Shown here: piece after piece, positions 7,812-31,318 of the stretch
How the letters are laid out: every line of letters starts with the position of its first letter
How positions within the stretch are numbered: position 1 is the stretch's first letter
Made by a program: the position numbers and the translations under genes
Virus record (IMG/VR): IMGVR_UViG_2698536687_000001
From: a virus
Lineage: Duplodnaviria > Heunggongvirae > Uroviricota > Caudoviricetes
Direction: 5' to 3' (one strand)
Length of the DNA: 64,000 bases
Notes under the pieces: model-generated
What the model was told of the DNA's origin: nothing
The model's database searches: none
What the model saw: the letters and a program-made list of their open reading frames with translations, nothing else

Positions 7812-8109
7812 AATCGCAGCGCCATTAGGCGGAGATGCCATTATCGAATTTGATGATAATGAAGAAGTTTCCGGGCGTTTAAGCATTATCTCCGGTGACA
7901 TTACCGAGGACATGATCGCTGAAGCCATAGCTGGAGCAAATCCCAATAGCTATATGGGATTCGTTAACACCCTTGATGCTCCCGCAAGTGATGTTCTCCG
8001 AACGCTGCATCTTTACGCTGGCTGGTTTGTTGATTGGCCTGTTGTAGATGGTGGCGATGAGGACGACGACGATGATTTTGGTGATCATGTAGGTCAGAAT
8101 GTTTATTAA
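7801..8109 (+). CDS. Small acidic protein with poly-Asp tail, translationally coupled to ddrB
   Basis: 102 aa, start overlaps ddrB stop; C-terminal GGDEDDDDDFGDH. Confidence 0.4.
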   Translation: MQIKIAAPLGGDAIIEFDDNEEVSGRLSIISGDITEDMIAEAIAGANPNSYMGFVNTLDAPASDVLRTLHLYAGWFVDWPVVDGGDEDDDDDFGDHVGQNVY

Positions 8110-8279
8110 ATAGTATTAGTGTAAGCTTAATTAGCTATTTTTAAGGCACAAAATTTGTTTATTCTATAGACGGAGTTGTGCCTGATTTTATAATTAAATA
8201 TTTCTCGCGTGCTGTAATAAGTGAGAGTGTTAAATGGTAATACTGGTTGTCTTTAGCAAAAGCTTAAAAGGAAATATAA

Positions 8280-8714
8280 ATGAACTCTTCGTCAAAACAG
8301 GCGATCATAATTCATGATGTATTATGCCATTATTGTAAAACTCACTATGATAGTGATGTCATGGTATTAACTATTGAACAGGATGTTAATTCTGGGTGGA
8401 ATCTTCGTGGTAAAGGAGAAATCCATACTAAATGTTCATGTCCTGTCTGCGGAATGATGTATACTGCTGTAAAGAGAATGATACCTATTGAGTGTGATAG
8501 CTATTTATGTCCAACGTGTAATGAATCATCAAACCTTGAATATAATGTATACAAGATCGAACGAGTTCAAGATAGTAATGATTTTACATTTAAAGCTAAT
8601 ATAATATGTAAGAAATGTCACAATAAAAAAACATTGACTAAAGTCATCAAAAAAATCCTAAATATAAAGAGAATTGAAGTTAAACTTACAGGGATTACTA
8701 TTGAGAGATATTAG
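8280..8714 (+). CDS. Cysteine-rich putative double zinc-ribbon protein in an AT-rich islet
   Basis: 144 aa with CxxC/CxCxxC/CxxC/CxxC spacing; AAGGAAATATAAATG RBS; visibly lower GC than flanks. Confidence 0.5.
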   Translation: MNSSSKQAIIIHDVLCHYCKTHYDSDVMVLTIEQDVNSGWNLRGKGEIHTKCSCPVCGMMYTAVKRMIPIECDSYLCPTCNESSNLEYNVYKIERVQDSNDFTFKANIICKKCHNKKTLTKVIKKILNIKRIEVKLTGITIERY

Positions 8715-8819
8715 TGAATAATTTTGATAGGTATTTTATAGCTGGATTGTAATTTATAGCTGAATGTGATGAACATCGAATACAAGCAGGTAATAATCCC
8801 GCCAATCGGCGGGATTTTT

Positions 8820-9614
8820 TTAATCGCTTTCCACTTCTTCCGTGGTGTTTTCTTGCAGTTCTGTTAATGCAGCACGGCACAGGTTACGGGCATTGGCTAT
8901 AGCCACACTTTTTACCTCATCCGTCATTGTGCAGGTAATGTACTGATCGAGTTCTTCAGCTCGGATGATGCTTTTCCCAATCATAAACTCTATTTGCCAG
9001 AGCAGATCGGCATCCATCGTCAGTATTTCAGCCGGGCCTTCTGGGCCTGCGGGGAAGCAAACATAAGACTGTTTGCCCAGGCCGATAACTCGACAACTTG
9101 CTTCAAGAATTGCGCGCTTGAGGTCTGACTTTGTAACGGAAACAGGTTGATTTTCACCAGTGATTACGCCGTTGACATGGAAGTGGAAGGGCATGTAGCT
9201 TGAAATTCGCTCTACTTTCCATACGCCAGCAAGCGATCCTTCATGCAGCACAATGGGGGTAACCGCGAGTTTCATCTCACCATATAACTGCTGGCAGATA
9301 GCTGGATTGCTGAATACATCCAAAGGTTCACACTCAAACAGCGGCGCAATCTGCATGAGGTCCATCATGGTCATACCAGGGGTACGAGCAGTAATGAATC
9401 TGCGCATTCCAGTATCCATTGTGCGCCAGATAGCTACACCATGCTTTTTGCTCACTTCTTCAGTAAAGCCAAGGTGGCACATGATGGTTGTTTCGATAGC
9501 CAGATCGGAGATAGAAACCTTTTCGCCTGGCACTCCATCATTATTGATGGTCACTTCGACACTCTGGCCATTACGTAGGCGGTATTGAATGGTTTTAGTA
9601 TTTTGTGCTGTCAT
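8820..9614 (-). CDS. Hypothetical protein
   Basis: 264 aa from ATG at 9614 (MTAQNTK); the 304-aa six-frame ORF extends upstream of the likely start. Confidence 0.45.
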   Translation of the reverse strand: MTAQNTKTIQYRLRNGQSVEVTINNDGVPGEKVSISDLAIETTIMCHLGFTEEVSKKHGVAIWRTMDTGMRRFITARTPGMTMMDLMQIAPLFECEPLDVFSNPAICQQLYGEMKLAVTPIVLHEGSLAGVWKVERISSYMPFHFHVNGVITGENQPVSVTKSDLKRAILEASCRVIGLGKQSYVCFPAGPEGPAEILTMDADLLWQIEFMIGKSIIRAEELDQYITCTMTDEVKSVAIANARNLCRAALTELQENTTEEVESD

Positions 9615-14115: not shown

Positions 14116-17100
14116 ATGAAAAAGCTATCTATGGGGGTGTTTCGCTGTTCAAGTGTCAGCGAAATATTGAAATACATTAGGGCAATAACATCTCACCGAG
14201 CGCCGATTAGATACGGCGTGGAAAAGGTGGAAGGCAAAAGCTATGACCGGCTGCGCCGGGAGGCGAATCAGAAGGCGATAGATTTGCTTAATTCGCTGGT
14301 GGACGGCGCGACACTGACAGATGAACAGCGCCAGATTCTGGCCGGGTACACCGGTGAAGGCGGCATTGGCGGGTCCGTCTCCGAATATTACACACCAAAG
14401 CCGATCGCTGAAGGTGTCTGGGAGATCATGAAGCTCTATGGCGCGGACGTAGGTAACACTCTGGAACCATCGGCGGGCACCGGCGTTTTTAATGAGACAA
14501 AACCGGTTGGTACGGTGATGACCGCGACTGAGATCAGCAGTGTTTCCGGTCGTATAAACCAGCTGTTACATCCGGAAGACAGCGTACAGATTTCCCCGTT
14601 CGAACAACTGGCTGTAAGCACGCCTAACGATTCATTCGACCATGTTGTGGGTAACGTTCCGTTCGGCGGTCGTGATAACACACGCAACATCGATAAGCCT
14701 TACGCAGAAGAAACGGATATGGGGTCTTACTTCATGCTCCGCATGCTGGACAAGATAAAGCCAGGCGGATTCATGTGTGTGATTGTGCCGCCGTCCATTG
14801 TTTCAGGTTCAAACATGAAGCGGTTACGCCTGCGCCTATCACGGAAAGCTGAATTTCTTGGTGCCCACCGCCTGCCTACCGGTACTTTTGACGCAAACGG
14901 GACCAGTACAGTTGTTGATGTGGTGCTGATGCGCAAACATCCGGCAGAGATGGCTGAGAAAATCCCCCTGGTGGATGAAAGCACTCTCGAATCGGCAAAT
15001 GTGCTTTGGCCAACGTTTATTTCTGGCAAGTGGTTTGAAAAGGACGGCCGCCGGTTTGTTCATGGCACCCAGGAAAAGGGCTTCCAGGGGCGTATTGAGG
15101 TTCGTGCCGACGGTCAGATTGATAACCAGGCTCTTAAAGCGAAGCTGATTCATCGTTTCGAAAGCCGTATCGACTGGTCTTTGCTCGATATGGCTGAACC
15201 GTCACCGACCGCAGACGTTGTTGGTGAAGGGGAAATGCGCCTGATTAATGGCGTATGGCAAAAATATGCTGGTGGTCGCTGGATTGAAGCTGATGCCGGG
15301 AAGGAACTTAAGATCGATGCTGCCAGTTATGGCGCGGATAGCTGGGAGGCTCTTCAGCGTAACCTGACTACAACAGAAGGCCGTCTCGGCATGACATTTA
15401 CCCAGATGGCAAATGTCCGCGATAAGTACACCACATCAATCAGCGACGATATGGTGCAGCTGGTGGACTGGATTAACAGCCAGCCTGAAAAATACCGTGA
15501 ACGCTTGTATCGCGGGGCGATGATTGGCCGGATGTTAATTGAATATCAGGACATGAAGGCCGCCGGGCATAGTGCTGAACAAATCGAACAGCAGCGCCTT
15601 TCTCTGGTATCCCGTTTGCAGGCAGAGATTGACCGTTTTGGTAACCCCGGTCGCGGTCCGATAGCGAAATTATCGGGGAGCGGTGCGCGCGCCTGGTTTG
15701 CTTTCCGTGGTGCAATTAAGCTGGATGGCACTATTTCTGACGAGCTGACAGGAAAACTGGTTACGCATGATTCCAGCGCCAGTTATGACTCCACCAGCTA
15801 TCAGGACACCCTGCGTTATCTCTACAGTGATCTCACTCGCGATCCAATCCAGCTCGATGATTTCCGCCTTGCGTTTACCGGCGAACTGCCAGCCAGTGAT
15901 GACGAGTTGCTTAATTTATTGGCCAGCACCCCTGGCATTGCGGTTTCACCGTATGGCGGGATTGTTCCGTTCGCCCGCGCCACCAGCGGCGACATTAACG
16001 AGATAGTGGCACCAAAACAGGAATTCCTTGCCACGCTCCCCGACGGTCCAGTAAAGAACAACGTCCTTAATCAGCTGGCAGCGATCGAAGAGAAGCGCAT
16101 CAAGACGCCAGCAGAGAATATCCGCTTTAAGCTCAATAGCCGTTGGTTCGACCGTTCCGTCATTCTGGAATTTTTGCAGGAAAACGGCTATCCGGATCTG
16201 CGCTATGTGCAGTCAGTGCAGCTGGAAGGCGACGAAATGGTTTCTGACACCTATCACGGTGGTGATGGTCTGTTCGTCGGGCACCGATACGGTGTCGTCC
16301 AGCGCAAGGATAAAGAAACAGGCGAGATCCGCTATGAGTGGGACCGTAAATCAGGTGAAAACGCGACCGGGTTCCCGGCACAGCTGGAAAAGTATCTCAA
16401 TGGTGCGCGTATCGGTGGCAAAGATAGCGCGACGGCGAACGGCTACCGCGAGCAGATGGCACTGCTTGAGGACCAGTTCAATAAGTGGATCAAGACGCAC
16501 GATCGCTACGATGAGTTGGTTGCCAAATACAACGATGTGTTCAATAGCAATATCCCGTATGAACACTCTGGCGATCCGCTTGGGTTGAAGGGATTAAGCG
16601 GTAAGCGCCAGCCATTTGATTACCAGAATAGCGAGGTGCGCCGACTGTCCGAAGATGGGCGCGGCATCCTGGGCTTCGGCACCGGGCTGGGTAAAACGAC
16701 GACCGCGCTGGCGCTTGAGGCGTTCAACTATGAGAACGGTCGCTCCACCCGTACTGCTTATGTAGTGCCTAAAGCAGTGCTGGAAAACTGGTATTACGAA
16801 GCAAAAGAGTTCCTGAGTGAAGAGGCATTCAGTAACTACCTGTTCGTCGGTCTTGATGTGCTGATGGATGGCGATCAGATTCGCCAGGTGCCGGTGCTCG
16901 ATGAGAACGGTAAACCTGTTCTTGGTACTGATGGCACTCCAGTTATGCGCGATGCTCTTAAGCTGGCAGATGAAGCCACTATCACGGCGCGGATGAACGC
17001 GATCCCGCACTCAAATTACCGTGCAGTCGTGTTTACCAAAGAACAATACGCCCGCATTCCGCTACGTGATGACACCGTAGATGAGCATGCACAGGATATG

Positions 17101-20100
17101 CTTTATGACTTCGTTGCCGCCGGGCGCGTAGCCAGCGCAATGGACTCCGACTCCCACCGCAAAGAGGCGGCGCGTCGCCGGGTATTGTCGGAGTATTCAG
17201 ATACCGGTACCGAAAAAGCAGAGAAGTATCCGTACTTTGAGGATATGGGCTTCGACAGCGTGATTGCTGACGAAGGCCACAACTACCGCAATAGCTATAA
17301 AAATGGTCGCGAAGCGTCACAGCTGGCCTATCTGCCCACCAGCGCGGTGGCGCAATCGGCGCGAGATATGGCAATCAAAAACGCGTACTTGATGAAAAAG
17401 AATGGCGGGCGCGGACCGGTTCTCCTGACTGCAACACCAGTCGTTAACACCCCGATCGATGCATACAACATGCTTTCTCATGTTCTGCCGAAGGAATACT
17501 GGCAGAAGATGGGGATCTACAGTCCTGATGACTTCGTTAAATTCTTCGGCAAGACCAGGCTGGAAACGGTACAGAAAATCAGCGGTGAAGTTGAAGAAAA
17601 AATGGCGCTGGTGGGCTTTGAAAACCTTGATGCGCTGCGCGGTATATTCCATCGCTGGGTAACGCTTAAAACGGCGGAAGACGTTAAGGATACCGTGGAG
17701 ATCCCGGAGCTGGACGAACACCAGCAGGATGCACCACTTACTGAAGAACAACTGGCGGCGTATGAAGAATTGCGTCAGCAGGCGGAAGCGGCGGCCAAAG
17801 CCAACAATGGCGTAACGACCTCGGTCAATGAAGACGGCGTGATTGAGCACGAGAAAGCCCGTCCGATCTTCTCAATAATCAGGGATATGGACCGCGTATG
17901 TACTGACATGGACCTGTACTATCGTCGGATCACCTATCGTTTCCTGCCGGAGTACGCCGATGCGGTGCAGCAGCTGGCGGACAGTTTGCCTAAACAAGCC
18001 ACCAGCGAAGACGACGACAGTGATGATTCAATCACGCAGCAATCGCAATACTCCCTGATAGATAAGGGCGAGTTTATTCAGTTGCAGGTTCCGGAAGCGT
18101 TCGAGCAGGAAGTGAATAAGCGCCTGGCCAGGTTTGGCATTGACGAACAGACCGTAACTCACCCCGTTACGCCCAAATACGCGAAGCTGATTGCCACGCT
18201 GAAGGAGTTTTTCCCGGAAGGTAAGCAAATCATCTTCACCGATGAAAAAACGCAGCACCAGAAGCTCAAGCGCATTATCTGCAATGCTCTTAACCTTGAA
18301 CCTTCAAAGGTGGGGATCCTGAATGCTCAGACGGTTGCCGAGGCAGGTAAAACCGGTAAGAAACTGAAAGCGGTTAAACCGCCGAAAGAGTTACCGGATG
18401 AACCAACAGATGCACAGATAGCGAAATACAACGAGCAAATGGCTCTGTATGACGCCTATATCGCGCAGCAAAATGAAATGTCGTTGGGCGGTCTGGAAAA
18501 GATTGCAGCCGACTTCCAGGAGGGCCGGACTCCGATCATCATCTGCAACAAAAAGGCAGAGGTGGGTATCAACCTGCATCGAGGAACGACTGACATCCAT
18601 CATCTGACGTTGCCATGGACTCCAGCCAGTATTGCGCAACGAAACGGTCGCGGTGCCCGAGTTGGCTCCAACCGTGCAAGCGTTCGCGTTCACTACTACT
18701 GCGGCAAGGGTTCTTTCGATGAATACCGACTGAAGACGCTGAAGCGTAAAGCAGGCTGGATCTCCGATATCCTCCGTTCAGATAAGTCAGAAATGGAGAA
18801 CGCCGACGCCAACGATATGATCGAAATGCAGATGTATACCGCTAAGGATGATGGCGAACGTCTGGCAATGATGCAGGTTCAAATGGATAAGGCGAAAGCC
18901 GCGCAACGCGCTCGCCAGAAAGAACAGGCTACTATCGACCTTCAGAACTACATCAAGGCGCAGCACGCAGCTGGTGAGGATGTGGAGGTGCTTACCGCTG
19001 AATTAGAGCGAAGCAAAGCGGAACTTGAAAAGACCACCGCCGAGGTAGCTAAATTCAAACAGGCGGCAATGGCCAAGGCAGCGGATAACGCAGACTGGAA
19101 GGCACGCTGGGGGAGTGTCCATCACACAGACCGTATGTTGTTAGCACAGTATCGCGCGTCGTTGAAAAGCGCCATTCAGCGCAAGGCTAATATCTCTCAG
19201 GCCATCTCCCGCTATGAGAAATTATTGAACCGTACTCAGAAGGCCGCGACGGATATCAAACGCCTGCGCCCGCTGGTGGAGGATGCATTAAATAAAGGCA
19301 TTCTGGATGTTGATCCTGACCTGGTTAACCATGCGAGTGAGTTCCTTGTTATCGGCGATCGCTCATGGCGTGTAGGCCAATACTACGATTGTGCCGGTGA
19401 TATCGTTCGCATTAAGTCGCTGGACTTCGACAGCCAGCGCGCAGACATGGAGATCATCTTCACCTTCAAAGGCACCAAATCTGGTAACTGGGATGTGAAG
19501 ACGCTGGATAAACAGGTTGATGTAACTCCCGATGAAGATGCTGTTATGCAGAAAATCAGTGGTGGCGTCTCCATCGCCGGGATTAACGACATCGTTTCCT
19601 GTGACGATTTCTACCGTTTCCAGCAGCGCGGCATGATCAAAATCACTGACTCATACGGCGTTCAGACTACAGAGTCAGGCTATAGCATTGATTTTGTTGG
19701 TACCTATACGGACCCACTGAAGCATGCGGTTTACCCGGATCGCCGTGACGGCGCGCTGAAGTCGTCAATTGCAAAATGGGTGCTTGGTATGATGTCGGAA
19801 GGGAATAACCGCCAGATCCGTTCGGCAGAAGCATTCCTGGTTGAACTGTTTGGCTCCAATTATGGCGATGTAATCGCGTCATACGGAGATACGCTATCCC
19901 CTGAAGCAATTCAGGAGAAAATAGCGGATGCGATCGCCAGAATGCCGGAGAAAACAAGCCAGGGGGCTACTCGTAACGGGGATTCTGAACTTGAAGTCAC
20001 CAATGCCATTTTCGGTACCAATGAGTTCCGGGCGTCAGATTATGAGATCACCACAGCACAGTTTGGCACCATTGGCATTTACAGCAATAAAGACGAGATC

Positions 20101-20883
20101 AAGCAGGCAATGGACGCAGCAAGCGCGCGCATTGCAGCAGAACGGAAAGTCAATCTGAATCATGCAGTCGCCGCGCTGACTCAATCGTGGGTAACAGCAA
20201 TCAGGGAGGCCGCCACCACAGGAAAAATCACACCGGCAATTGCGGATGTCGTAAACGACGGCTCTAAATTTATGGATGCCTATAAAATGGATGCGGTGCA
20301 GTTGCCATCAGCCTATGGGCAACTCAGCTATCGCATGACCTACAACCTGGTATCAATGTTTACCGACCTTGCCATCCTTGGGCTGGTGGACCTTAACGAG
20401 GTTACGCCGGAATTGCTCAGCATGCGCAAGAATCATGTGGAGATATTGCACAGAATTAACACGGTACTTGCCGGGCGCACCGATGAAGAGAAACAGGCAG
20501 ACGCTGATCGGATAAACCTGGCCCTTGGCAACATCACGGAGGAAGAAATTGCTGCCAGAAACGAGAAACAAGAAGAGTTATCATCAATACAGGGTGATGC
20601 CACCAGCATAGCTCAGTCTCTTGGTCTGAATTATCGCGTATCCACCGCCGACCTGAAGATGATGTACGCACCAAAATTCGCCGCTGGCGAGGTATTTGGG
20701 CTTCAGGAAGCCTCCGGCATGAAAGGGGTTCTTTTCCGTGCGAAAGACGCAATCAAGGCGAAATTCGGCGCTCGCTGGTTGCCAGCGAAGGCGAAGAACA
20801 GCGACTTCCCAGGTAACTGGTGGATTATCGAGACAAAACACAACGTGGCGGACGTTCTGGCCGTCATCCAACAATACGCATAA
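14116..20883 (+). CDS. darB: DarB, giant antirestriction protein with N-terminal methyltransferase-like and helicase-like domains
   Basis: 2255 aa, the size recalled for P1 DarB; N-terminal MTase-like region (VGNVPFGGRD) and helicase-like motifs (GFGTGLGKTTTA, VIADEGHNYRN). Confidence 0.85.
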   Translation: MKKLSMGVFRCSSVSEILKYIRAITSHRAPIRYGVEKVEGKSYDRLRREANQKAIDLLNSLVDGATLTDEQRQILAGYTGEGGIGGSVSEYYTPKPIAEGVWEIMKLYGADVGNTLEPSAGTGVFNETKPVGTVMTATEISSVSGRINQLLHPEDSVQISPFEQLAVSTPNDSFDHVVGNVPFGGRDNTRNIDKPYAEETDMGSYFMLRMLDKIKPGGFMCVIVPPSIVSGSNMKRLRLRLSRKAEFLGAHRLPTGTFDANGTSTVVDVVLMRKHPAEMAEKIPLVDESTLESANVLWPTFISGKWFEKDGRRFVHGTQEKGFQGRIEVRADGQIDNQALKAKLIHRFESRIDWSLLDMAEPSPTADVVGEGEMRLINGVWQKYAGGRWIEADAGKELKIDAASYGADSWEALQRNLTTTEGRLGMTFTQMANVRDKYTTSISDDMVQLVDWINSQPEKYRERLYRGAMIGRMLIEYQDMKAAGHSAEQIEQQRLSLVSRLQAEIDRFGNPGRGPIAKLSGSGARAWFAFRGAIKLDGTISDELTGKLVTHDSSASYDSTSYQDTLRYLYSDLTRDPIQLDDFRLAFTGELPASDDELLNLLASTPGIAVSPYGGIVPFARATSGDINEIVAPKQEFLATLPDGPVKNNVLNQLAAIEEKRIKTPAENIRFKLNSRWFDRSVILEFLQENGYPDLRYVQSVQLEGDEMVSDTYHGGDGLFVGHRYGVVQRKDKETGEIRYEWDRKSGENATGFPAQLEKYLNGARIGGKDSATANGYREQMALLEDQFNKWIKTHDRYDELVAKYNDVFNSNIPYEHSGDPLGLKGLSGKRQPFDYQNSEVRRLSEDGRGILGFGTGLGKTTTALALEAFNYENGRSTRTAYVVPKAVLENWYYEAKEFLSEEAFSNYLFVGLDVLMDGDQIRQVPVLDENGKPVLGTDGTPVMRDALKLADEATITARMNAIPHSNYRAVVFTKEQYARIPLRDDTVDEHAQDMLYDFVAAGRVASAMDSDSHRKEAARRRVLSEYSDTGTEKAEKYPYFEDMGFDSVIADEGHNYRNSYKNGREASQLAYLPTSAVAQSARDMAIKNAYLMKKNGGRGPVLLTATPVVNTPIDAYNMLSHVLPKEYWQKMGIYSPDDFVKFFGKTRLETVQKISGEVEEKMALVGFENLDALRGIFHRWVTLKTAEDVKDTVEIPELDEHQQDAPLTEEQLAAYEELRQQAEAAAKANNGVTTSVNEDGVIEHEKARPIFSIIRDMDRVCTDMDLYYRRITYRFLPEYADAVQQLADSLPKQATSEDDDSDDSITQQSQYSLIDKGEFIQLQVPEAFEQEVNKRLARFGIDEQTVTHPVTPKYAKLIATLKEFFPEGKQIIFTDEKTQHQKLKRIICNALNLEPSKVGILNAQTVAEAGKTGKKLKAVKPPKELPDEPTDAQIAKYNEQMALYDAYIAQQNEMSLGGLEKIAADFQEGRTPIIICNKKAEVGINLHRGTTDIHHLTLPWTPASIAQRNGRGARVGSNRASVRVHYYCGKGSFDEYRLKTLKRKAGWISDILRSDKSEMENADANDMIEMQMYTAKDDGERLAMMQVQMDKAKAAQRARQKEQATIDLQNYIKAQHAAGEDVEVLTAELERSKAELEKTTAEVAKFKQAAMAKAADNADWKARWGSVHHTDRMLLAQYRASLKSAIQRKANISQAISRYEKLLNRTQKAATDIKRLRPLVEDALNKGILDVDPDLVNHASEFLVIGDRSWRVGQYYDCAGDIVRIKSLDFDSQRADMEIIFTFKGTKSGNWDVKTLDKQVDVTPDEDAVMQKISGGVSIAGINDIVSCDDFYRFQQRGMIKITDSYGVQTTESGYSIDFVGTYTDPLKHAVYPDRRDGALKSSIAKWVLGMMSEGNNRQIRSAEAFLVELFGSNYGDVIASYGDTLSPEAIQEKIADAIARMPEKTSQGATRNGDSELEVTNAIFGTNEFRASDYEITTAQFGTIGIYSNKDEIKQAMDAASARIAAERKVNLNHAVAALTQSWVTAIREAATTGKITPAIADVVNDGSKFMDAYKMDAVQLPSAYGQLSYRMTYNLVSMFTDLAILGLVDLNEVTPELLSMRKNHVEILHRINTVLAGRTDEEKQADADRINLALGNITEEEIAARNEKQEELSSIQGDATSIAQSLGLNYRVSTADLKMMYAPKFAAGEVFGLQEASGMKGVLFRAKDAIKAKFGARWLPAKAKNSDFPGNWWIIETKHNVADVLAVIQQYA

Positions 20884-20916: not shown

Positions 20917-21357
20917 ATGGCCACACTATCTGATACAATAAAACCGAATAAAACATATCTTGAGGCGGTACTCCGTACAGCGTTGTTAGGAAAGACAGAA
21001 GACGAATACGTTGATTTCTTCCTGTCAGGGCTACGCGGGCGATTACTGAAAAATCCCCGCCTGTACCGCAGCTATGGTCCATACTGGCCGGAAATTAAAA
21101 AATTATTACTGGAGCGCGGTTATGGTAATTTCGGTCGTCTCGTTGACCGTGACGTTCGCAAAATTTACCGTTATGACCGCCCGGCGCTAACACTCATAGC
21201 CGCGACGCTCTACAGCCAGGAGCGTTTTGATAATGGTCAGATATACTCAGCCTGGCATTTACTGCCAGTGCCTGAAGAAGTTGACGACCAGGACTATGAG
21301 TTTGAGTCTTACGATTTGGAAGTTGAAGCCTTGGCACAGGCTGGAGAGAAAACTTGA
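20917..21357 (+). CDS. ulx: Hypothetical protein downstream of darB (P1 Ulx position)
   Basis: 146-aa ORF directly after darB; named by position only. Confidence 0.4.
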   Translation: MATLSDTIKPNKTYLEAVLRTALLGKTEDEYVDFFLSGLRGRLLKNPRLYRSYGPYWPEIKKLLLERGYGNFGRLVDRDVRKIYRYDRPALTLIAATLYSQERFDNGQIYSAWHLLPVPEEVDDQDYEFESYDLEVEALAQAGEKT

Positions 21358-21602
21358 AAAAGCGATACTACACAGTAAAGCATGGGACGCTACGAGCATT
21401 ACAAGAGTTTGCTGATAAGCATAACGTTGAGGTGCGCAGGGAAGGGGGAAGTAAAGCTCTGCGCATGTACCGTCCGGACGGGAAATGGCGGACGGTCGTC
21501 GATTTCAAAACAAACAGTGTTCCCCAGGGCGTCCGTGACCGGGCATTCGAGGAATGGGAGCAGATCATCATAGATAACGCATTGCTCCTGAATGCTGATT
21601 GA
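21354..21602 (+). CDS. lxc: Lxc/Bof-like C1 corepressor
   Basis: 82 aa, the size recalled for P1 Bof/Lxc; overlaps preceding ORF stop. Confidence 0.5.
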   Translation: MKKRYYTVKHGTLRALQEFADKHNVEVRREGGSKALRMYRPDGKWRTVVDFKTNSVPQGVRDRAFEEWEQIIIDNALLLNAD

Positions 21603-21746
21603 TATATCTGAGTATATCGAATAATCTCGGCTACTGTTCCATCCGATACCAATGCTCCATAAGGGTAAATTTATGAAGATCCATATCTTCAACCGTTTCC
21701 TGGTCATGGAGCATTGATAGTTTTATCATGGAAAAGAATGAAGTTA

Positions 21747-22160
21747 TCACTTCATCAAAATGTAATTATGGCACGGCAATATACAATCCTTATGGATTTT
21801 ATCTTTGTAGGAATATTTTATCTTTACGTAAGGAGATAATGACAAATCTATCCAGAATGTGAAGTCGTTACGAATCTCCAGTTTGTTGTATATCTGATGC
21901 TTCTGAACTGAAATGGTCTTAATACTGCGAAATCTACACTTCGATATCTGAGTGATGTTATATCCTTTTATCAATAATTCAAGGACTTTGCATTCAACAT
22001 CTGTCAGCGGTGTTGATATCCATACATGTGCAGTAATATCGTATCTATCTATATCAGCTTTTATGTAACGAATTATTTTATTATTCATTTTTATTACGGT
22101 ATGTATTGTAAAACAGGAAATAATAAAGTGGCTTATCATGATAAAGAGCAGTCCATCCAT
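21747..22160 (-). CDS. Small LuxR/FixJ-family HTH transcriptional regulator
   Basis: LTDVECKVLELLIKGYNITQISKCRFRSIKTISVQKHQIYNKL matches the LuxR-type HTH signature; AT-rich gene. Confidence 0.6.
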   Translation of the reverse strand: MDGLLFIMISHFIISCFTIHTVIKMNNKIIRYIKADIDRYDITAHVWISTPLTDVECKVLELLIKGYNITQISKCRFRSIKTISVQKHQIYNKLEIRNDFTFWIDLSLSPYVKIKYSYKDKIHKDCILPCHNYILMK

Positions 22161-22193
22161 GGTTCTGCTCTTTATTTTTAGATGCTATTTAGT

Positions 22194-25100
22194 TCAGAAG
22201 GTATACTTCACGCCCAACATTGCAGATGTGTCGTTATACCCTTTGTCACCGACTTGAACACCTACATTCCCCCACAGGTTCAGTCTGGAATTTATCTGCC
22301 CATCAACACCGGCTTTTATTTCTCCGATATTACGAGCACCGTCCTGATGTACCGTCACGCCATTCATTCGAGTACCAAAATCACGGGTGTTATGCAGCCA
22401 GTTCACTTCCACAAATGGGCTGAATTCCTGGGATTTGCCTTCATCTATACGACTGTGGCTTTTAATCCATGTTTTCACGCCCAGACGGGTACGGACATTA
22501 CCGTCTCCGGTGCTTTCAACACGGGTACCGTTGCTTTCGCGGTGTTCGTCCGCTTTAACACCCATCCAGATGACCTGAGCCTGAGGCTGGACATACCACT
22601 CATTCAAACCACCTTGGTTGCCCGTAAACTCTCCCGCCTTCCAGGTATAACCAGTTTCCAGTGATGCAGTAAGTCCTTTTGATTTCCAGGATTCACTCTG
22701 CAATCCATCACCTTTAACATAGTTATCAAACCAGCTGTACTGTGCCCAAGAGTCCAGGTAAGCTCCGTTATGTGTTTCATCATTGGCATACCAGGTAGCG
22801 TACAGCCCAGTGCTGTAACCATTCACACTACCTTTTGAACGATATCCTGTGCGCACAGATTCTGTATTGTTGTGGTCATTACCGTATCCGGCCATTAAGC
22901 CAAGATGCCAGCGATCCGTCTTATTCCAACCCCACTGTGCTATATCGCCGCCCAGTTGCATAACATAACGGTTGCTTTGTGTTTTTAGCTGGTTGCTTCC
23001 GTCGCGCCAGCGATTGTGTCCACCCTCATGACGCATCCACATGCTTGTAGTTTTCAACTCACCGGTAATCACATCGGTATACTGCATTTGCCCCTGACGT
23101 TCGTGTAGGCGAGTCACGAACATTGTATTTGCAGCAGCAATGTTTGCCGTATAGCTACCAGCTTCTGGGCGAAGATCATTGTCACCTGGTGTTGGGGTCG
23201 GATTTGGCACCGGGTCCGGGTTCGGAGTNNNNNNNNNNNNNNNNNNNNNNNNNNNNNNNNNNNNNNNNNNNNNNNNNNNNNNNNNNNNNGGTCCGGGTTC
23301 GGAGTTGGATTTTCAGGTTGTTTGCCACTAGTTAGGTACCAGTTGCCATTTTTATCACCTTGTCCCCGCCCAAGAGTGTAATCATAAGCACCAGCCGCAA
23401 TTCGCCCAACTTGTACAAAGTCACCGTTAGATTGACCATCAACCTGGATAATGTTGATGCCATTGAGTGTTTGTGCCCCAATACCACCAACATTGTTTAC
23501 GGAAACAAAGGTTTTACCCTCTGTATTTCCTTTTACAACCAACTTATCGATTGGAGAGGTGTCGTCACCAAGAACACCTGAAAAGTAGATATAGCCATTT
23601 TCGCCAGTATAATCACCATTAATTGTTAAAGTGTTTTTTGCATCGCTGCCCAAGTATATAGAGCCATTATTATTAAGATGAGCAACATCCGAATCGCTAA
23701 CCATATTCCAGATGCTGTTTTTAGCTAAATTAACAATGCCACCGTTATACGCGGTTCCAGTCCAGTTGGAATTTTCTAATGCCAGATTGGCAATGCTGTT
23801 ACTATCAGCGCGAATATCGCCATTAAAGGAAGTATTCTTGACTGTAACATCAACCTTCCCTCCCACACCAGCATCATTCCTGAATGAGGAAATAAATGTG
23901 CCGTTATTCTTAATCTGGCTGCTATCTAGCGTGGCGGAAATGACTCCACCCTTGGCATTGAAATTATACCCTTTTTCACTAATCATCACCCCATTCTCTT
24001 GGGTGAGCTCAATTTTGGCATTTTGGGCAACAAATACAGAATCAGCATTATTTCCTGATACGTGAATGGATGTATTATTACCACTAATAACGGTATAATC
24101 ATCACTGCCCCATATTCCATGAGCGTAATCTCCGCTTGTTGTAAGCGATGAAGCAGAACCAAGTGTAACTTTCGCACCTGTATTTGCTGTTACACCATAC
24201 GATTTCTGCCCTTTGGTTATTATTCGGGCTGTGCCGGTATTAACAGTCGCGTCATTTTGTGCGTTTATACCGTGTGAGCCAATACCGTCTGTATTAATAA
24301 CTATTTCTTCGACGCTAATATCAGTTTTTTTACCATGCCCCCACACACCTATCGACTGCTCACCAGATGTGGATATTGTGGATGTACCCGTCAGCTCCAC
24401 GCTTGAATCAGGTGCTGAGTCTGTAGCGGATGAGGCCGTAACATATATACCTTCGGCTGATGTACCGGTAGTTTTTATTGATACACTATCTCCAGTTATT
24501 AAACCACCATTACCACCTACAATCTGTATGGCTTTAGCCTGCTCTCCTGATGTTTCAAGAGATGCATTTACCCCTAGATTTATATTCCCATTATTAGAGA
24601 TAGTTACCGCATGAGCTTGTGTGCCAGAAGTCGTTGCCTGGAGTCCTTTAGATACAGAGATACTAGCGTTATTGCCATCTGCACGTAAACCATAGCCATT
24701 TTGGCCTGAAGTAGAAATATTGACATCAGTTAATTCAGCTAAGCCACCTGACGATGCAAATACTCCCCATGCTCCTGTTCCATCAGTTTTAATCTGCGTA
24801 TTTGTTAGTGAGACATAACCGTTATTTTCGGCAGATACGCCACGAGCTCCCCATGCTTGTGATGGTTTTTTATCCCCCAGAGTGGTAATAGTAGAGTCGC
24901 TAATCACTATGTTGCTATTTTTACCAGAGCTAACAATACCTCTGGCATTATATCCAGATGTAGTAACATTAACTTTGCTTAAGGTAGCCTGGCCTCCATT
25001 TAAAATAGAAACACCACTAGCGTTTACACCAGATGTGTTAATGTCGCCTTGTTCAACAGTTAGTGTTGATTTGTCAACATTAATTCCAGTTGCATTCATC

Positions 25101-25513
25101 CCACTTGTTGTAACTGACATACCATTAGCGATAGTCATTGAAGAATTATTGTCAAGTGAAATACCTGATGCGTTTTTTCCTTTTGTTGTTATTGCAATCC
25201 CACCTTGAGAGTTAAGCGCGGAATTGCTGGAGATATTAACTCCGTTTGCCTTATCACCTTCTGTAGATAAGGTAACTGTACCTTCGGTAGTTAGCTTCCC
25301 TGAATTTGTGATAGAAATTGCATACCCATCACTTCCTGTATTACTTCCTGTATCAATATCGATCTGTTCTTTTTTAACTTGAACAGTATTATCAATATCA
25401 ATAGGAGCAGTTGATGCGTAAGCGTTTGAAAATAATGCGCCGATTATTGCTGCCAGCATGGACAAACGAGGAGCCCCCTCTCTTGAAGAGCTATTATAAG
25501 CAGAAAGTGACAT
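22194..25513 (-). CDS. AIDA-I-type autotransporter adhesin (type Va), interrupted by an assembly gap in its PNPTP linker
   Basis: Signal peptide from MSLS (GAGG RBS), passenger with degenerate NxSG/TxSG repeats, C-terminal beta-barrel ending GVKYTF; the two six-frame ORFs are one gene split by the N-run. Confidence 0.8.
23229..23289. other. Assembly gap (61 N) within the proline-rich linker repeat of the autotransporter
   Basis: Run of N flanked by near-identical GGTCCGGGTTCGGAGT repeats. Confidence 0.99.
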
Positions 25514-26005
25514 AGGTAACCTCAAGATTATACATTATCGAACCAGTATTTTAGTTTGCTGGGTAATTATATTTTCGGAAACATTCATGCATTTTGCTGC
25601 ACAAATCTGAAAGATGATAAATAAGGAAGTTAAATAAATCAATTATTCGTTTTAAATAAATTTCAAACAAAAAAATTACCAAGCAAATATATGCAGGCAG
25701 CATGCGTTTTTACACAAAAAAAAACGCGAGGCATTGAATTTGTATTCAATATTGGCTATGAAAACAACATGGTGGTTTGATGGCTATTAATTTCTTTATT
25801 TATCACTTTTATGTTTATTATATATCTATTAAGAAGGTTAGTAATGAATAATTATATAAAGCTAGCAGCCTCCATTTGTAATTGGTTTTTATCGGTTGTT
25901 TTGGTTTGGTTTATTATGTGTTTAAAAAATGTGTTTGCTTTGTATGCAAGAATGTTTGATAGCCGCTTAAGTGGTAATTTTGGCTTTGGGATAATTAAAT
26001 ATAAG

Positions 26006-26647
26006 TTATAGGTGACCATATTTACCTGTGAGTATACCTTGCGGCACACGAGTTTCTCCCATTCGTTGAGTAGCATTAATAATATTGATGAATGATTCTA
26101 TCAGCGAGGGTTCACGTTGCGTATTACTCCTGCCAACCATTGCCTGAATATAGTTCGCACTCACTACGTTGTTGTATTCAGTTGCAAAGCAACATAGTAA
26201 CGTCAGAACGTGCTCTGTCGTTATTTCGCTCCAGTTGATGTTGAAAAATTCATCGCCTTTTTTGTCATGTTCGGAATCGAAGATGCTTTGGTGGAGGATG
26301 TATTTGCCGGATTCCTTGCGCGGTAACTTAATCGCTTTCTGGCGTTCCAGCTCTTTGTAAATCTGCATTGCCTCAATTAGTACCGGCCTGCCGTTCATGA
26401 AGGGATCGCGCAACCTTACACGCTGGCCAACTCGACCAGTAATAAAGCTGTTTTCCTCTTCCACCAGCACGATAAAACCCTTTTCCTCTTTTTCTCGCAA
26501 TTCGCGCAGCAGCTGGAGTTCCATATCGCGGCGGCGTTCAGGGTAGCTGGTCCGCTCAGCCATTATCAGCTCGTTATTGATCCATGCAGCAGTCATTGAC
26601 GCCGGTTTGCCGACGCTCATCGAAACAACGCATATTTTCTTATCCAT
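26006..26647 (-). CDS. mat: Hypothetical protein at the P1 Mat position
   Basis: 213 aa from ATG 26647 (MDKKICVV); sits between the cargo island and ref as mat does in P1. Confidence 0.45.
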   Translation of the reverse strand: MDKKICVVSMSVGKPASMTAAWINNELIMAERTSYPERRRDMELQLLRELREKEEKGFIVLVEEENSFITGRVGQRVRLRDPFMNGRPVLIEAMQIYKELERQKAIKLPRKESGKYILHQSIFDSEHDKKGDEFFNINWSEITTEHVLTLLCCFATEYNNVVSANYIQAMVGRSNTQREPSLIESFINIINATQRMGETRVPQGILTGKYGHL

Positions 26648-28006: not shown

Positions 28007-29038
28007 CTAATCGCCATCTTCCAGCAGGCGCACCATTGCCCCTGTTTCACTATCCAGGTTACGGATATAGTTCATGACAATATTTACGTTGGTCCAGCCA
28101 CCAGCTTGCATGATCTCCGGTATTGAAACTCCGGCACGGGCCATATCTCGCGCGGCTCCGACACGGGCACTGTGTCCAGACCAGGCCAGGTACCTCTGGC
28201 CAGAGTCATCCTTAGCCCCGTAAATCAATCGGTGAGTTGCTTCAAAAATCCCTTCCAGGGCGCGAGTTGATAGCTGGCTGGTGGGTGATGGCGAGGCAAC
28301 ACCATTTTTTCTGACCCGGCAAAACAAGTAGTTATTCGGATCATCAGCCACACCAGAGACAGAAATCCATCGCTCGACCAGTTTAGTTACCCCCAGGCTA
28401 AGTGCCTTCTCTACACCTGCGGTGCTAACCAGCGTTTTCGTTCTGCCAATATGGATTAACATTCTCCCACCGTCAGTACGTGAGATATCTTTAACCCTGA
28501 TCCTAGAAATTTCGGCTATACGTAACAGGGTGTTATAAGCAATCCCCAGAAATGCCAGATTACGTATATCCTGACAGCGATCGCTATTTTCCATGAGTGA
28601 ACGAACCTGGTCGAAATCAGTGCGTTCGAACGCCAGTGCCTGTTTTGCACGTTCACCGGCATCAACGTTTTCTTTTCGGATCCGTCGCATGACCAGTGAA
28701 ACAGCATTACTGTCACTTGGTCGTGGCAGCCCGGACCGACGATGAAGCATGTTTAGTTGGCCCAAATGTTGCTGGATAGTTTTTACTGCCAGACCGCGCG
28801 CCTGAAGATATAGAAGATAATCGCGAACATCTTCAGGTTCTGCGGGAAACCATTTCCGGTTATTCAACTTGCACCATGCCGCCCACGACCGGCAAACGGA
28901 CAGAAGCATTTTCCAGGTATGCTCAGAAAACGCCTGGCGATCCCTGAACATGTCCATCAGGTTCTTGCGAACCTCATCACTCGTTGCATCGACCGGTAAT
29001 GCAGGCAAATTTTGGTGTACGGTCAGTAAATTGGACAT
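28007..29038 (-). CDS. cre: Cre tyrosine recombinase
   Basis: 343 aa beginning MSNLLTVHQNLPALPVDATSDEVRKNLMDMFRDRQAFSEHTWKMLLSVCRSWAAWCKL, the well-known Cre sequence, with catalytic RHRY residues in the C-terminal domain. Confidence 0.98.
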   Translation of the reverse strand: MSNLLTVHQNLPALPVDATSDEVRKNLMDMFRDRQAFSEHTWKMLLSVCRSWAAWCKLNNRKWFPAEPEDVRDYLLYLQARGLAVKTIQQHLGQLNMLHRRSGLPRPSDSNAVSLVMRRIRKENVDAGERAKQALAFERTDFDQVRSLMENSDRCQDIRNLAFLGIAYNTLLRIAEISRIRVKDISRTDGGRMLIHIGRTKTLVSTAGVEKALSLGVTKLVERWISVSGVADDPNNYLFCRVRKNGVASPSPTSQLSTRALEGIFEATHRLIYGAKDDSGQRYLAWSGHSARVGAARDMARAGVSIPEIMQAGGWTNVNIVMNYIRNLDSETGAMVRLLEDGD

Positions 29039-29455: not shown

Positions 29456-29489
29456 GATAACTTCGTATAATGTATGCTATACGAAGTTA
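29456..29489. other. loxP: loxP recombination site
   Basis: Exact ATAACTTCGTATA-ATGTATGC-TATACGAAGTTAT. Confidence 0.98.
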
Positions 29490-29533
29490 TCAGGTCCGAA
29501 GAGGAGTTTACGTCCAGCTGCGCACAAAAATCA

Positions 29534-30191: not shown

Positions 30192-31043
30192 ATGATAAAT
30201 TATGTCTACGGCGAACAACTGTACCAGGAGTTCGTCAGCTTCAGGGATCTCTTTCTAAAAAAAGCTGTTGCACGCGCCCAACACGTTGATACAGCCAGCG
30301 ACGGTCGTCCTGTACGCCCGGTTGTCGTTCTACCGTTCAAAGAAACTGACAGCATTCAGGCTGAAATTGATAAATGGACTTTAATGGCGCGGGAACTGGA
30401 ACAGTACCCAGACCTCAATATCCCAAAGACTATTTTATATCCAGTGCCTAACATCCTTCGCGGTGTGCGCAAGGTTACAACTTATCAGACAGAAGCTGTG
30501 AACAGCGTCAACATGACCGCTGGCCGCATTATTCATCTGATTGATAAGGACATTCGCATCCAAAAAAGCGCGGGGATCAATGAGCACAGTGCGAAATACA
30601 TAGAGAACCTGGAAGCAACAAAAGAGCTAATGAGGCAGTACCCGGAGGATGAAAAATTCCGTATGCGCGTACACGGCTTTAGCGAAACAATGCTGCGCGT
30701 CCACTACATTTCCAGTAGCCCTAACTACAATGATGGTAAATCAGTTAGTTACCATGTGCCACTGTGTGGCGTGTTTATCTGCGATGAAACTCTCCGTGAT
30801 GGAATTATCATCAACGGTGAATTCGAAAAAGCAAAATTTAGCCTTTATGACTCCATAGAACCGATCATCTGCGACCGCTGGCCGCAAGCAAAAATATATC
30901 GCCTGGCAGATATTGAAAATGTAAAAAAACAAATTGCCATCACTCGCGAAGAGAAAAAGGTTAAGTCAGCCGCATCAGTTACGCGCAGCCGTAAAACCAA
31001 GAAGGGGCAGCCAGTAAACGACAACCCCGAAAGCGCGCAATAA
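30192..31043 (+). CDS. c1: C1 immunity repressor
   Basis: 283 aa beginning MINYVYGEQLYQEFVSFRDLFLKKAVARAQHVD, matching P1 C1 as recalled. Confidence 0.95.
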   Translation: MINYVYGEQLYQEFVSFRDLFLKKAVARAQHVDTASDGRPVRPVVVLPFKETDSIQAEIDKWTLMARELEQYPDLNIPKTILYPVPNILRGVRKVTTYQTEAVNSVNMTAGRIIHLIDKDIRIQKSAGINEHSAKYIENLEATKELMRQYPEDEKFRMRVHGFSETMLRVHYISSSPNYNDGKSVSYHVPLCGVFICDETLRDGIIINGEFEKAKFSLYDSIEPIICDRWPQAKIYRLADIENVKKQIAITREEKKVKSAASVTRSRKTKKGQPVNDNPESAQ

Positions 31044-31052: not shown

Positions 31053-31318
31053 NNNNNNNNNNNNNNNNNNNNNNNNNNNNNNNNNNNNNNNNNNNNNNNN
31101 NNNNNNNNNNNNNNNNNNNNNNNNNNNNNNNNNNNNNNNNNNNNNNNNNNNNNNNNNNNNNNNNNNNNNNNNNNNNNNNNNNNNNNNNNNNNNNNNNNNN
31201 NNNNNNNNNNNNNNNNNNNNNNNNNNNNNNNNNNNNNNNNNNNNNNNNNNNNNNNNNNNNNNNNNNNNNNNNNNNNNNNNNNNNNNNNNNNNNNNNNNNN
31301 NNNNNNNNNNNNNNNNNN
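31053..31318. other. Assembly gap (266 N)
   Basis: Run of N starting 9 nt after the c1 stop. Confidence 0.99.

What the first reader, a model, noticed from the sequence alone, without database searches (positions are those of the whole stretch)
21603..26005. AT-rich cargo island at the position where P1 carries its res/mod genes: LuxR-type regulator plus AIDA-like autotransporter
Between lxc and mat the backbone is interrupted by visibly AT-rich DNA. It encodes a small LuxR-family HTH protein and a large autotransporter with a repetitive passenger domain, a PNPTP linker (unresolved, N-run) and a beta-barrel ending GVKYTF, preceded by a long AT-rich leader (25526-26005). This points to lysogenic conversion (adhesion or aggregation) in place of a restriction system, and a replaceable cargo slot.
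Basis: partly seen in the sequence, partly recalled or inferred. Interest (0 to 1): 0.5.

Follow-up and report, generated by a model that had tools for sequence, protein, structure and literature searches.

The report
Autotransporter-plus-regulator cargo in P1 slot
A P1-like phage-plasmid carries, where phage P1 keeps its restriction genes, a rare two-gene cargo: a surface autotransporter protein and a small DNA-binding regulator. It is an unusual passenger in a swap site that was already known, not a new kind of system.

Summary
The window is a P1-like phage-plasmid. Between lxc (ends 21602) and mat lies about 4.5 kb of 40.6% GC DNA, against 52% in the left flank. On the minus strand it holds a 492-nt, 28% GC leader, a classical (type Va) autotransporter (ATG 25513 to stop 22194), a conserved hairpin, and a 113-aa GerE/LuxR-type gene (22088-21747).

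The 61-N gap lies in a length-variable proline-rich linker. All nine closed relatives read through it in frame, giving a 1092-aa protein in the near-identical plasmid CP056895.1. The window's own frames need a gap length of 2 mod 3, so 61 is either a placeholder or a frameshift.

P1 has mod::IS5-res at this site and RCS47 has nothing. About 700 P1-like plasmids carry mostly defence-type genes there. The site is the published RD-1 hot-spot. This cargo is rare: 2 of about 700 plasmids, and none in phage or IMG/VR collections.

The translocator is AIDA-I-like. The passenger is a pertactin/Vag8-like beta-helix, not AIDA repeats. The regulator is a stand-alone relative of the PdeL DNA-binding domain and of Salmonella SrgD. 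It travels with such barrels in E. albertii. An adhesion or motility role is inferred, not shown.

The parts
21354..21602 (+). lxc (82 aa), left backbone flank. Homology to P1 and RCS47 stops at 21600, inside its stop codon.
21603..21746 (.). Spacer between the convergent lxc and the LuxR-type gene. It is island DNA with no P1 counterpart.
21747..22088 (-). 113-aa stand-alone GerE/LuxR-type HTH protein, related to the PdeL N-domain and to SrgD.
   Evidence: Pfam PF00196. Start codon conserved. Profile hit to PdeL 7pk5 at E 2e-19. 40% identity to K-12 PdeL residues 10-79. 39% identity to pSLT SrgD.
22143..22173 (-). Conserved stem-loop (AAAGAGCAG...CTGCTCTTT) between the autotransporter stop and the regulator start. 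It looks like a terminator or attenuator.
   Evidence: Present in 5 modules from P1-like elements and E. albertii. Folding of the 116-nt intergenic stretch gives -21.3 kcal/mol, z -2.5.
22194..23228 (-). C-terminal part of the autotransporter: end of the Pro-rich linker and the 12-strand beta-barrel, ending GVKYTF plus stop. The ORF is open, 344 codons.
23229..23289 (.). 61-N assembly gap inside the Pro-rich linker, flanked by a 16-nt direct repeat GGTCCGGGTTCGGAGT.
   Evidence: Linker length varies in relatives.
23290..25513 (-). N-terminal part of the autotransporter: signal peptide (about aa 1-34, cleavage motif AYA|S), beta-helix passenger, AC_1 autochaperone, start of the linker. 741 open codons from ATG 25513, preceded by GAGG.
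25514..26005 (-). AT-rich (28% GC) 5' leader and regulatory region of the autotransporter. It is conserved among the P1-borne variants and partly in a chromosomal homologue.
25614..25642 (-). Sigma-70-like promoter candidate TTGATT-17-TATCAT. The -10 block is conserved in relatives.
   Evidence: This is a consensus match only.
25733..25750 (.). 18-bp palindrome ATTGAAT-N4-ATTCAAT, a candidate operator. Arms are conserved and the spacer is free in the 3 P1-borne variants. The chromosomal homologue has compensating arm changes.
26006..26132 (-). 3' end of mat (mat is 26006-26647). It belongs to the variable segment, because homology to P1 and RCS47 resumes only at 26133.

Best explanation
This is an accessory, horizontally acquired two-gene module sitting in the known RD-1 (res-mod) hot-spot of a P1-like phage-plasmid.

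Shown:
- The module encodes a classical type Va autotransporter. It has a Sec signal peptide, a roughly 600-aa pertactin/Vag8-like beta-helix passenger with no recognisable enzyme domain, an autochaperone, a length-variable Pro-rich linker and an AIDA-I-type barrel.
- About 105 nt downstream on the same strand, after a conserved hairpin, lies a 113-aa stand-alone GerE-type DNA-binding protein of the PdeL-N/SrgD subfamily.
- The block 'barrel + hairpin + regulator' is a conserved unit. It also occurs on E. albertii plasmids and chromosomes, joined to different passengers.
- The island has no transposon ends. Its borders lie at the lxc stop codon and inside mat.

Inferred:
- The module entered by homologous recombination in the conserved flanks.
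- In lysogens, which carry the element as a plasmid, the AT-rich and probably H-NS-silenced leader drives the autotransporter. The protein decorates the outer membrane as an adhesin or aggregation factor.
- The regulator is made by read-through of the hairpin or from a weak promoter of its own. By analogy with PdeL it counter-silences and activates its own locus. By analogy with SrgD, and with PdeL as I recall it from work not retrieved here, it down-regulates flagellar genes. Adhesion and motility would then be switched reciprocally.
- The net effect would be lysogenic conversion of the cell surface, in place of the restriction system P1 carries here.
For: Synteny and replacement.

Domain content.

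Beta-helix model: pLDDT 80.5, with best PDB matches Vag8 and pertactin.

Intact orthologues: 1092 aa in CP056895.1 at 99.8% nucleotide identity, 1084 aa in NZ_CP012497.1 and 1087 aa in L014, plus six more near-identical loci. All are in the same P1 slot.

Conserved unit: window 21818-23219 aligns contiguously at 77.6% with E. albertii modules whose passengers differ. The hairpin is conserved in all five modules.

Regulator kinship: PdeL N-domain at E 2e-19 and 40% identity, SrgD at 39% identity. [quoted passage not shown]

Literature: PefI-SrgD repress flagellar class I expression and are de-repressed in hha ydgT mutants (PMC3224193). PdeL activates its own H-NS-silenced promoter from palindromic boxes (bioRxiv 10.1101/2021.10.01.462762).

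Leader: 28% GC, with a conserved palindrome and a promoter-like site.

No flanking repeats. The slot is a published hot-spot (PMC6906374).
Against: No expression or phenotype data exist for any member.

The passenger has no close characterised homologue, so 'adhesin' rests on fold class alone. Vag8, pertactin and BrkA-type helices also serve in complement evasion.

In this window the gene halves are out of frame for a 61-nt gap, so this particular copy could be broken.

The conserved palindrome also occurs upstream of a chromosomal homologue that has no LuxR-type gene nearby. It may therefore be a site for a host factor rather than for this regulator.

The hairpin may terminate transcription fully, which would uncouple the two genes.

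Most neighbours in this slot are defence-type genes, which hints at a different selective logic.
Confidence: 0.6

Rival explanations
1. The module is an anti-phage or superinfection-exclusion device. The autotransporter would shield receptors or clump cells. Alternatively the regulator would shut off a receptor such as the flagellum. This would fit its place in a slot that otherwise holds defence systems.
For: In about 700 P1-like plasmids the same slot carries type III R-M, SIR2, RelA/SpoT, PIN and DUF2971 genes. PdeL-controlled c-di-GMP affects phage sensitivity (title and abstract of bioRxiv 10.1101/2021.10.01.462762).
Against: The autotransporter has no PADLOC match. The regulator has only a weak, HTH-level hit at E 7e-5. 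The same barrel-hairpin-regulator block sits in ordinary plasmid and chromosomal adhesin-type islands outside phages. No autotransporter is known to me as a dedicated defence protein (own knowledge).
Confidence: 0.07
2. The cargo is inert. It is either a pseudogene in this element, frameshifted in the slippery linker repeat, or so tightly silenced by H-NS that it has no phenotype. It would be a hitch-hiker kept only by linkage.
For: The frames either side of the gap need a gap length of 2 mod 3, and 61 is 1 mod 3. The linker repeat changes length between 99.7-99.9% identical copies. One metagenomic copy (L030) has the gene called in two pieces. The leader is 28% GC.
Against: Both halves are fully open in the window, at 741 and 344 codons. 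Nine closed relatives are in frame across the linker. The three P1-borne variants have diverged to 84-89% yet all keep intact genes, which implies purifying selection. N-run lengths in scaffolds are usually placeholders (own knowledge).
Confidence: 0.15
3. The passenger is not an adhesin but a host-interaction factor of another kind, for example a complement or serum-resistance factor like Vag8 or BrkA. The regulator would be simply its local activator.
For: The best sequence and fold matches of the passenger are Vag8 (E 1.9e-13 by sequence, best Foldseek hit) and pertactin. Ag43 is much weaker.
Against: Identity to Vag8 is only about 14% in the structural alignment. The beta-helix fold is shared by autotransporters of many functions. 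Sources of the carriers are wastewater, alfalfa sprouts and metagenomes, with no clear link to invasive disease.
Confidence: 0.13
4. The LuxR-type protein works for the phage, tuning lysogeny next to lxc, rather than for the autotransporter or the host.
For: It lies convergent to lxc, a modulator of C1 repressor action (P1 annotation).
Against: The regulator gene is physically coupled to AIDA-type barrels in non-phage contexts in E. albertii, with the same hairpin and about 105-nt spacing. P1-like elements with an empty slot or other cargo do without it.
Confidence: 0.05

Closest known systems
AIDA-I-type classical (type Va) autotransporters of Enterobacteriaceae: AIDA-I, MisL, the ECSE_1600 family, YfaL/EhaC
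   Same: Signal peptide, beta-helix passenger, AC_1 autochaperone, Pro-rich linker and 12-strand barrel. The barrel matches AIDA-I structure 4mee at E 1e-92. The C-terminal half aligns to the ECSE_1600 and MisL models.
   Different: No NCBIfam equivalog cut-off is reached: 582 against 2335, 519 against 1297, 290 against 1200. The passenger is unrelated to AIDA-I repeats. There is no aah/tibC-type glycosyltransferase nearby and no ESPR. The nearest full-length relative is an unnamed chromosomal E. coli protein at 67% identity.
Pertactin and Vag8 (Bordetella) passengers
   Same: Right-handed beta-helix of similar length. These are the best sequence and fold matches of the passenger.
   Different: Only 13-14% identity in the structural alignments, with TM scores of 0.28-0.49. 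No RGD or other functional motif was checked. Function cannot be transferred.
[quoted passage not shown]
   Same: A small (about 115 aa) stand-alone GerE-type protein encoded beside an adhesin locus on a mobile element. 39% identity over 82 aa. With PefI it represses flagellar class I expression, and it is de-repressed without Hha/YdgT (PMC3224193).
   Different: It is linked to a chaperone-usher fimbrial operon, not an autotransporter, and is co-encoded with PefI. There is no conserved hairpin-and-barrel unit. Target sites are unknown for both proteins.
PdeL (YahA) N-terminal DNA-binding domain of E. coli
   Same: Best solved-structure match to the regulator family profile (7pk5, E 2e-19). 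The alignment covers the whole N-domain, including the ITFW motif, at 40% identity. PdeL binds palindromic boxes and counteracts H-NS at its own AT-rich promoter.
   Different: PdeL carries a C-terminal EAL phosphodiesterase domain that senses c-di-GMP and drives tetramerisation. The 113-aa protein has only a short, variable tail.
P1 res-mod region, hot-spot RD-1 of P1-like elements
   Same: Same position between lxc and mat. Low G+C cargo, replaced wholesale between relatives (PMC6906374).
   Different: The cargo is a surface protein plus a regulator instead of a restriction or other defence-type system. It is found in only 2 of about 700 P1-like plasmids in PLSDB and in no phage record.

Membership tests
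Classical (type Va) autotransporter | C-terminal 12-strand beta-barrel translocator (Pfam PF03797) ending in an aromatic residue | tested here: met
   PF03797 at E 5.6e-44, residues 811-1070. TIGR01414 at 412 bits. The protein ends in YTF.
Classical (type Va) autotransporter | N-terminal Sec signal peptide and a single-chain passenger with an autochaperone | tested here: met
   Basic n-region (R11, R16), hydrophobic core LSMLAAIIGALF and AYA|S cleavage motif, read from the sequence. No signal-peptide predictor was run. AC_1 PF18883 at E 2.6e-27. The AF2 model shows a beta-solenoid over residues 65-620, mostly pLDDT >90.
AIDA-I equivalog / self-associating autotransporters (AIDA-I, Ag43, TibA) | AIDA-type roughly 19-aa repeat passenger reaching the family model score | tested here: not met
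   NCBIfam auto_AIDA-I scores 289.8 bits against a cut-off of 1200, and only residues 760-1092 align. Ag43 structures rank low in Foldseek.
AIDA-I equivalog / self-associating autotransporters (AIDA-I, Ag43, TibA) | Cognate heptosyltransferase gene (aah/tibC), or a Dam/OxyR GATC phase switch as in Ag43 | tested here: not met
   No other conserved gene lies in the island. There are no GATC sites in the 492-nt leader.
AIDA-I equivalog / self-associating autotransporters (AIDA-I, Ag43, TibA) | Cell-cell self-association | not testable with these tools
   Needs aggregation assays.
LuxR/GerE-type HTH regulators | GerE helix-turn-helix domain (PF00196) above the gathering score | tested here: met
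   31.1 bits against a cut-off of 23.5.
Quorum-sensing LuxR or two-component NarL/FixJ response regulators | Autoinducer-binding domain or phospho-receiver domain N-terminal to the HTH | tested here: not met
   The protein is only 113 aa, with about 27 residues before the HTH and no other Pfam or NCBIfam domain.
PdeL-N / SrgD subfamily of stand-alone GerE proteins | Homology across the whole PdeL N-domain, including the segment after the HTH (ITFW motif) | tested here: met
   Profile against 7pk5 at E 1.9e-19, positions 8-85 to 5-82. 40% identity to PdeL and 39% to SrgD. The family is small: 6 clusters at E<=1e-30 and 46 at E<=1e-10 among 1.84 billion representatives.
PdeL-N / SrgD subfamily of stand-alone GerE proteins | Repression of flagellar genes, or anti-H-NS auto-activation | not testable with these tools
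   Known only for SrgD and PdeL from the literature.
Cargo of the P1 RD-1 (res-mod) hot-spot | Lies between lxc and mat of a syntenic P1-like backbone, with unrelated cargo in relatives | tested here: met
   PMC6906374.
Known anti-phage defence systems | Match to a PADLOC model | tested here: not met
   The autotransporter has none. The regulator has only a weak HTH-level hit to CARF3.
Transposon or insertion element | Terminal inverted repeats, target duplication, transposase or integrase | tested here: not met
   No flanking repeats. No such gene in the island.

The most novel reading that the evidence does not exclude
'AIDA-type barrel - hairpin - PdeL-N-like regulator' may be a mobile adhesion/motility switch cassette. 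In this reading, read-through of the adhesin transcript doses a regulator that shuts down flagella or counter-silences H-NS. When a transducing phage-plasmid carries it in its defence hot-spot, it would convert lysogens into aggregating, non-motile cells. Those cells might also be harder for other phages to reach. That would link surface remodelling with phage-phage competition.
Probability: 0.15. Interest if true: 0.6.

Novelty: new member of a known kind. Interest (0 to 1): 0.35.

Why it matters
P1-like phage-plasmids are widespread in E. coli and Salmonella, and they move genes by infection as well as by inheritance. This case shows that their res-mod hot-spot can carry a surface protein with its own regulator, not only defence or resistance genes. 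That widens the range of traits they could spread by lysogenic conversion.

The work also defines a small, uncharacterised regulator family of stand-alone PdeL-N/SrgD-like proteins. These are physically coupled to autotransporter barrels. The family gives a concrete and testable candidate for reciprocal control of adhesion and motility.

The case is not conceptually new. The hot-spot, the autotransporter class and adhesin-linked regulators are all known.

Tried and rejected
- Megablast of the island against 50,697 phage records found no match. IMG/VR scans with the passenger and with the regulator found no relatives.
- A genome-contig scan (one genome per species) with the regulator alignment found no confirmed relative.
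- Rfam at E<=1 over 21400-26300 found nothing.
- Tandem Repeats Finder found no repeat array in the passenger DNA.
- An Ag43-like Dam/OxyR switch is rejected, because the leader has no GATC.
- The TTG 25525 start and the 137-aa version of the regulator are rejected in favour of ATG 25513 and ATG 22088. The alternatives are not conserved in the 88% relative.
- The word-index protein search returned only 4 passenger relatives. It missed a 67%-identical chromosomal homologue later found by BLAST, so 'almost no homologues' was not accepted.
- A link between the regulator family and chaperone-usher fimbriae in E. albertii was downgraded. That locus keeps the hairpin and the last ~60 nt of an autotransporter barrel, so it is a remnant of the same module.
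- A 24-nt inverted repeat in the leader (25610-25633 / 25787-25810) exceeds shuffles (0 of 60) but is not conserved in the other P1-borne variants. The invertible-promoter idea was dropped.
- The pdeL promoter of K-12 was searched for a palindrome like the one in the leader. Only TACCTT-TTT-AAGGTA was found, which is not similar.
- The small ORFs in the leader (66 aa on the plus strand, 50 and 74 aa on the minus strand) and the 102-aa ORF overlapping lxc have no Pfam hits. They lie in stretches with frame-breaking indels between relatives, so I treat them as non-coding.
Full report
**What is there**

The window is a P1-like phage-plasmid. The gene order is darB (14116-20883), ulx (20917-21357), lxc (21354-21602), the island, mat (26006-26647, minus strand), ref, c8, cre (28007-29038), cra and a canonical loxP at 29457-29490. 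The island 21603-26005 is 40.6% GC. The left backbone is 52.0% and the right backbone 46.3%.

All island features lie on the minus strand:
- a 492-nt leader of 28.3% GC (26005-25514)
- an autotransporter gene starting at ATG 25513, preceded by GAGG, and ending at the TGA at 22194-22196
- a 105-nt spacer
- a 113-aa gene (22088-21747)

The run of 61 N at 23229-23289 falls in the Pro-rich linker. It is flanked by a 16-nt direct repeat.

**Is the autotransporter intact?**

Both halves are open in the window, at 741 and 344 codons. The two frames can only join if the gap length is 2 mod 3, and 61 is 1 mod 3. The N-run is therefore either a scaffolding placeholder or hides a frameshift.

Plasmid CP056895.1 (pRHBSTW-00046_2, E. 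coli, UK wastewater, IncY, 98 kb) matches the island at 99.8%. It has 20 nt in place of the Ns, which gives an uninterrupted 1092-aa protein. Six further near-identical loci and two diverged P1-borne variants also read through in frame. Their linker lengths differ, with PNPTPTPNPDPE/V units gained or lost. The repeat explains why short reads failed here. It also argues that the gene is normally intact.

**What the two proteins are**

The large protein has the Autotransporter beta-domain (PF03797, E 6e-44), the AC_1 autochaperone (PF18883, E 3e-27) and a plausible signal peptide.
- Its barrel is closest to AIDA-I (PDB 4mee, E 1e-92).
- Its autochaperone region is closest to IcsA.
- No named NCBIfam equivalog is reached.
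- The passenger has no Pfam match.
- An AlphaFold2 model of window residues 1-741 (pLDDT 80.5, pTM 0.81) gives a long right-handed beta-solenoid. Its best PDB matches are Vag8 and pertactin, with Ag43 far behind.
- Degenerate TTSGxNAxGI rungs recur about every 25 residues. There is no cysteine and no enzyme domain.

So 'AIDA-like' is accurate for the translocator only.

The small protein carries a GerE/LuxR HTH (PF00196, 31.1 bits against a cut-off of 23.5) and nothing else.
- A profile of its family hits the N-terminal DNA-binding domain of PdeL (7pk5) at E 2e-19 over the whole domain.
- It is 40% identical to K-12 PdeL residues 10-79.
- It is 39% identical to the protein at the srgD position of the Salmonella virulence plasmid.
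- The family is small. Among 1.84 billion representatives there are 6 clusters at E<=1e-30 and 46 at E<=1e-10.

**The slot**

Homology to P1 and RCS47 ends at 21600, at the lxc stop codon. It resumes at 26133, inside mat, so the last ~42 codons of mat travel with the cargo.
- P1 has mod::IS5 and res here.
- RCS47 has 39 nt.
- Phage Ro157c2YLVW has an unrelated HTH gene and a hypothetical gene.
- Among about 700 P1-like plasmids in PLSDB, the slot holds type III R-M, SIR2, RelA/SpoT, PIN, DUF2971, EAL, HTH and other genes.

Venturini et al. 2019 already named this site RD-1, one of five low-G+C hot-spots (PMC6906374). The island has no flanking repeats and no recombinase. Exchange by homologous recombination in the conserved flanks is therefore the simplest mechanism, and this step is an inference.

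The autotransporter cargo is rare:
- 2 of about 700 PLSDB plasmids
- one further NCBI assembly with a diverged variant
- about ten contigs carrying the exact regulator protein, all in the same slot
- none in 50,697 phage records or in IMG/VR

**A conserved module beyond P1**

The regulator family recurs immediately downstream of AIDA-type autotransporters in E. albertii plasmids (1300-aa autotransporter plus 109-aa GerE protein). It recurs likewise in E. albertii chromosomes (1440-aa autotransporter plus 105-aa GerE protein). Spacing is about 105 nt in each case.

Window 21818-23219 covers most of the regulator gene, the spacer and the whole barrel up to the linker. It aligns contiguously at 77.6% with those loci. 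The passengers are unrelated upstream of the autochaperone.

Right after the autotransporter stop, all five modules keep a stem-loop: AAAGAGCAG, loop, CTGCTCTTT, at window 22143-22173. The 116-nt intergenic stretch containing it folds at -21.3 kcal/mol, z -2.5. It looks like a terminator or attenuator.

A chromosomal E. coli homologue of the whole autotransporter (67% identity) sits in a CP4-type island and lacks the regulator. An E. albertii locus next to a pef-like fimbrial operon keeps only the regulator, the hairpin and the last ~60 nt of a barrel, so it is a remnant.

**The leader**

The leader is conserved among the three P1-borne variants and partly in the chromosomal homologue. Its features are:
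- a promoter-like site, TTGATT-17-TATCAT, at 25642-25614
- an 18-bp palindrome, ATTGAAT-N4-ATTCAAT, at 25733-25750. Its arms are invariant and its spacer varies. In the chromosomal homologue it reads AATGAAT-N4-ATTCATT, with compensating changes in both arms. The core TGAAT-N4-ATTCA occurs once in the 64-kb window, against 0.13 expected.

This looks like a dimer-binding operator. Because it is also present where the regulator gene is absent, its ligand may be a host factor. There are no GATC sites, so an Ag43-type Dam/OxyR switch is excluded. Rfam finds nothing.

**How it most likely works**

Shown: a complete secretion-competent autotransporter design, a stand-alone DNA-binding protein coupled to it as a conserved unit, and placement in a known exchange hot-spot.

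Inferred:
- The AT-rich leader is subject to H-NS-type silencing.
- The passenger acts at the cell surface, most likely in adhesion or aggregation.
- The regulator is produced at a low level by read-through of the hairpin. It then counter-silences its own locus, as PdeL does. Alternatively or additionally it represses flagellar genes, as PefI-SrgD do. PdeL is also reported to repress motility; this is my recollection of work not retrieved here.

Rivals are a defence or exclusion role, an inert or broken cargo, a Vag8-like non-adhesin role, and a phage-directed regulator. None is excluded by computation, and all are less well supported.

**Novelty and verdict**

The hot-spot, the autotransporter class and adhesin-linked regulators are all known. 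What is new is this rare cargo in a P1-like element, and the recognition of a barrel-hairpin-regulator unit with a PdeL-N/SrgD-like protein. I found no literature on that unit. I rate the finding a new member of a known kind, of moderate interest.

Noticed in passing
window 31053-31318: There is a second N-run, of 266 N, just after the c1 gene (30192-31043). Beyond it the window differs from CP056895.1. It resembles NZ_CP012497.1 instead, which has KilAC-antirepressor and icd-like genes between c1 and pacB.
   Followed up: partly
window 26006-26132: The last ~127 nt (~42 codons) of mat are not homologous to P1 or RCS47 mat at the DNA level. They co-vary with the cargo, so the right recombination junction of the hot-spot lies inside mat. 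The Mat C-terminus therefore differs between P1-like elements.
   Followed up: partly
window 25733-25750: A palindrome ATTGAAT-N4-ATTCAAT lies about 220 nt upstream of the autotransporter start. It is conserved in three P1-borne variants and, with compensating arm changes, in a chromosomal homologue that lacks the regulator. The binding protein is unknown.
   Followed up: partly
window 25610-25633 and 25787-25810: A 24-nt imperfect inverted repeat (20 of 24) brackets 153 nt of the leader, including the palindrome and the -35 of the promoter-like site. It exceeds all 60 shuffles but is not conserved in the diverged variants.
   Followed up: yes
window 23213-23305; L001, L002, L014, L027-L032: The Pro-rich linker varies in length by whole PNPTPTPNPDPE/V units. 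This holds even between copies that are 99.7-99.9% identical elsewhere, which points to fast repeat slippage that stays in frame.
   Followed up: yes
L026:5683-6372 (NZ_CP128941.1) and other plasmids; plasmid hits H153-H165: Some P1-like plasmids carry an EAL-domain protein in the same lxc-mat slot. Separately, E. coli plasmids, many from cattle, encode EAL-domain proteins that match the regulator at about 41% identity. I did not check whether the slot-borne EAL proteins have that N-terminal domain.
   Followed up: partly
NZ_CP012497.1 41031-45169 and NZ_CP015229.1 1881958-1886096 (strain 06-00048): The diverged island is recorded twice for one strain. It appears on a 136-kb IncY plasmid record and again inside a 5.5-Mb chromosome record. 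This could be integration of the P1-like element or an assembly difference.
   Followed up: no
L021 (F128 plasmid of E. coli K-12) 1-9119: The F' plasmid carries two large autotransporter genes. The barrel of one is 79% identical at the DNA level to the island's barrel. Many conjugative plasmids from cattle E. coli carry similar barrels, some truncated by IS elements.
   Followed up: partly
window 29457-29490: A canonical 34-bp loxP site is present. The same 34 bp match exactly in a Lactococcus phage Q33 record and in a Nonomuraea record. I did not look into why.
   Followed up: no
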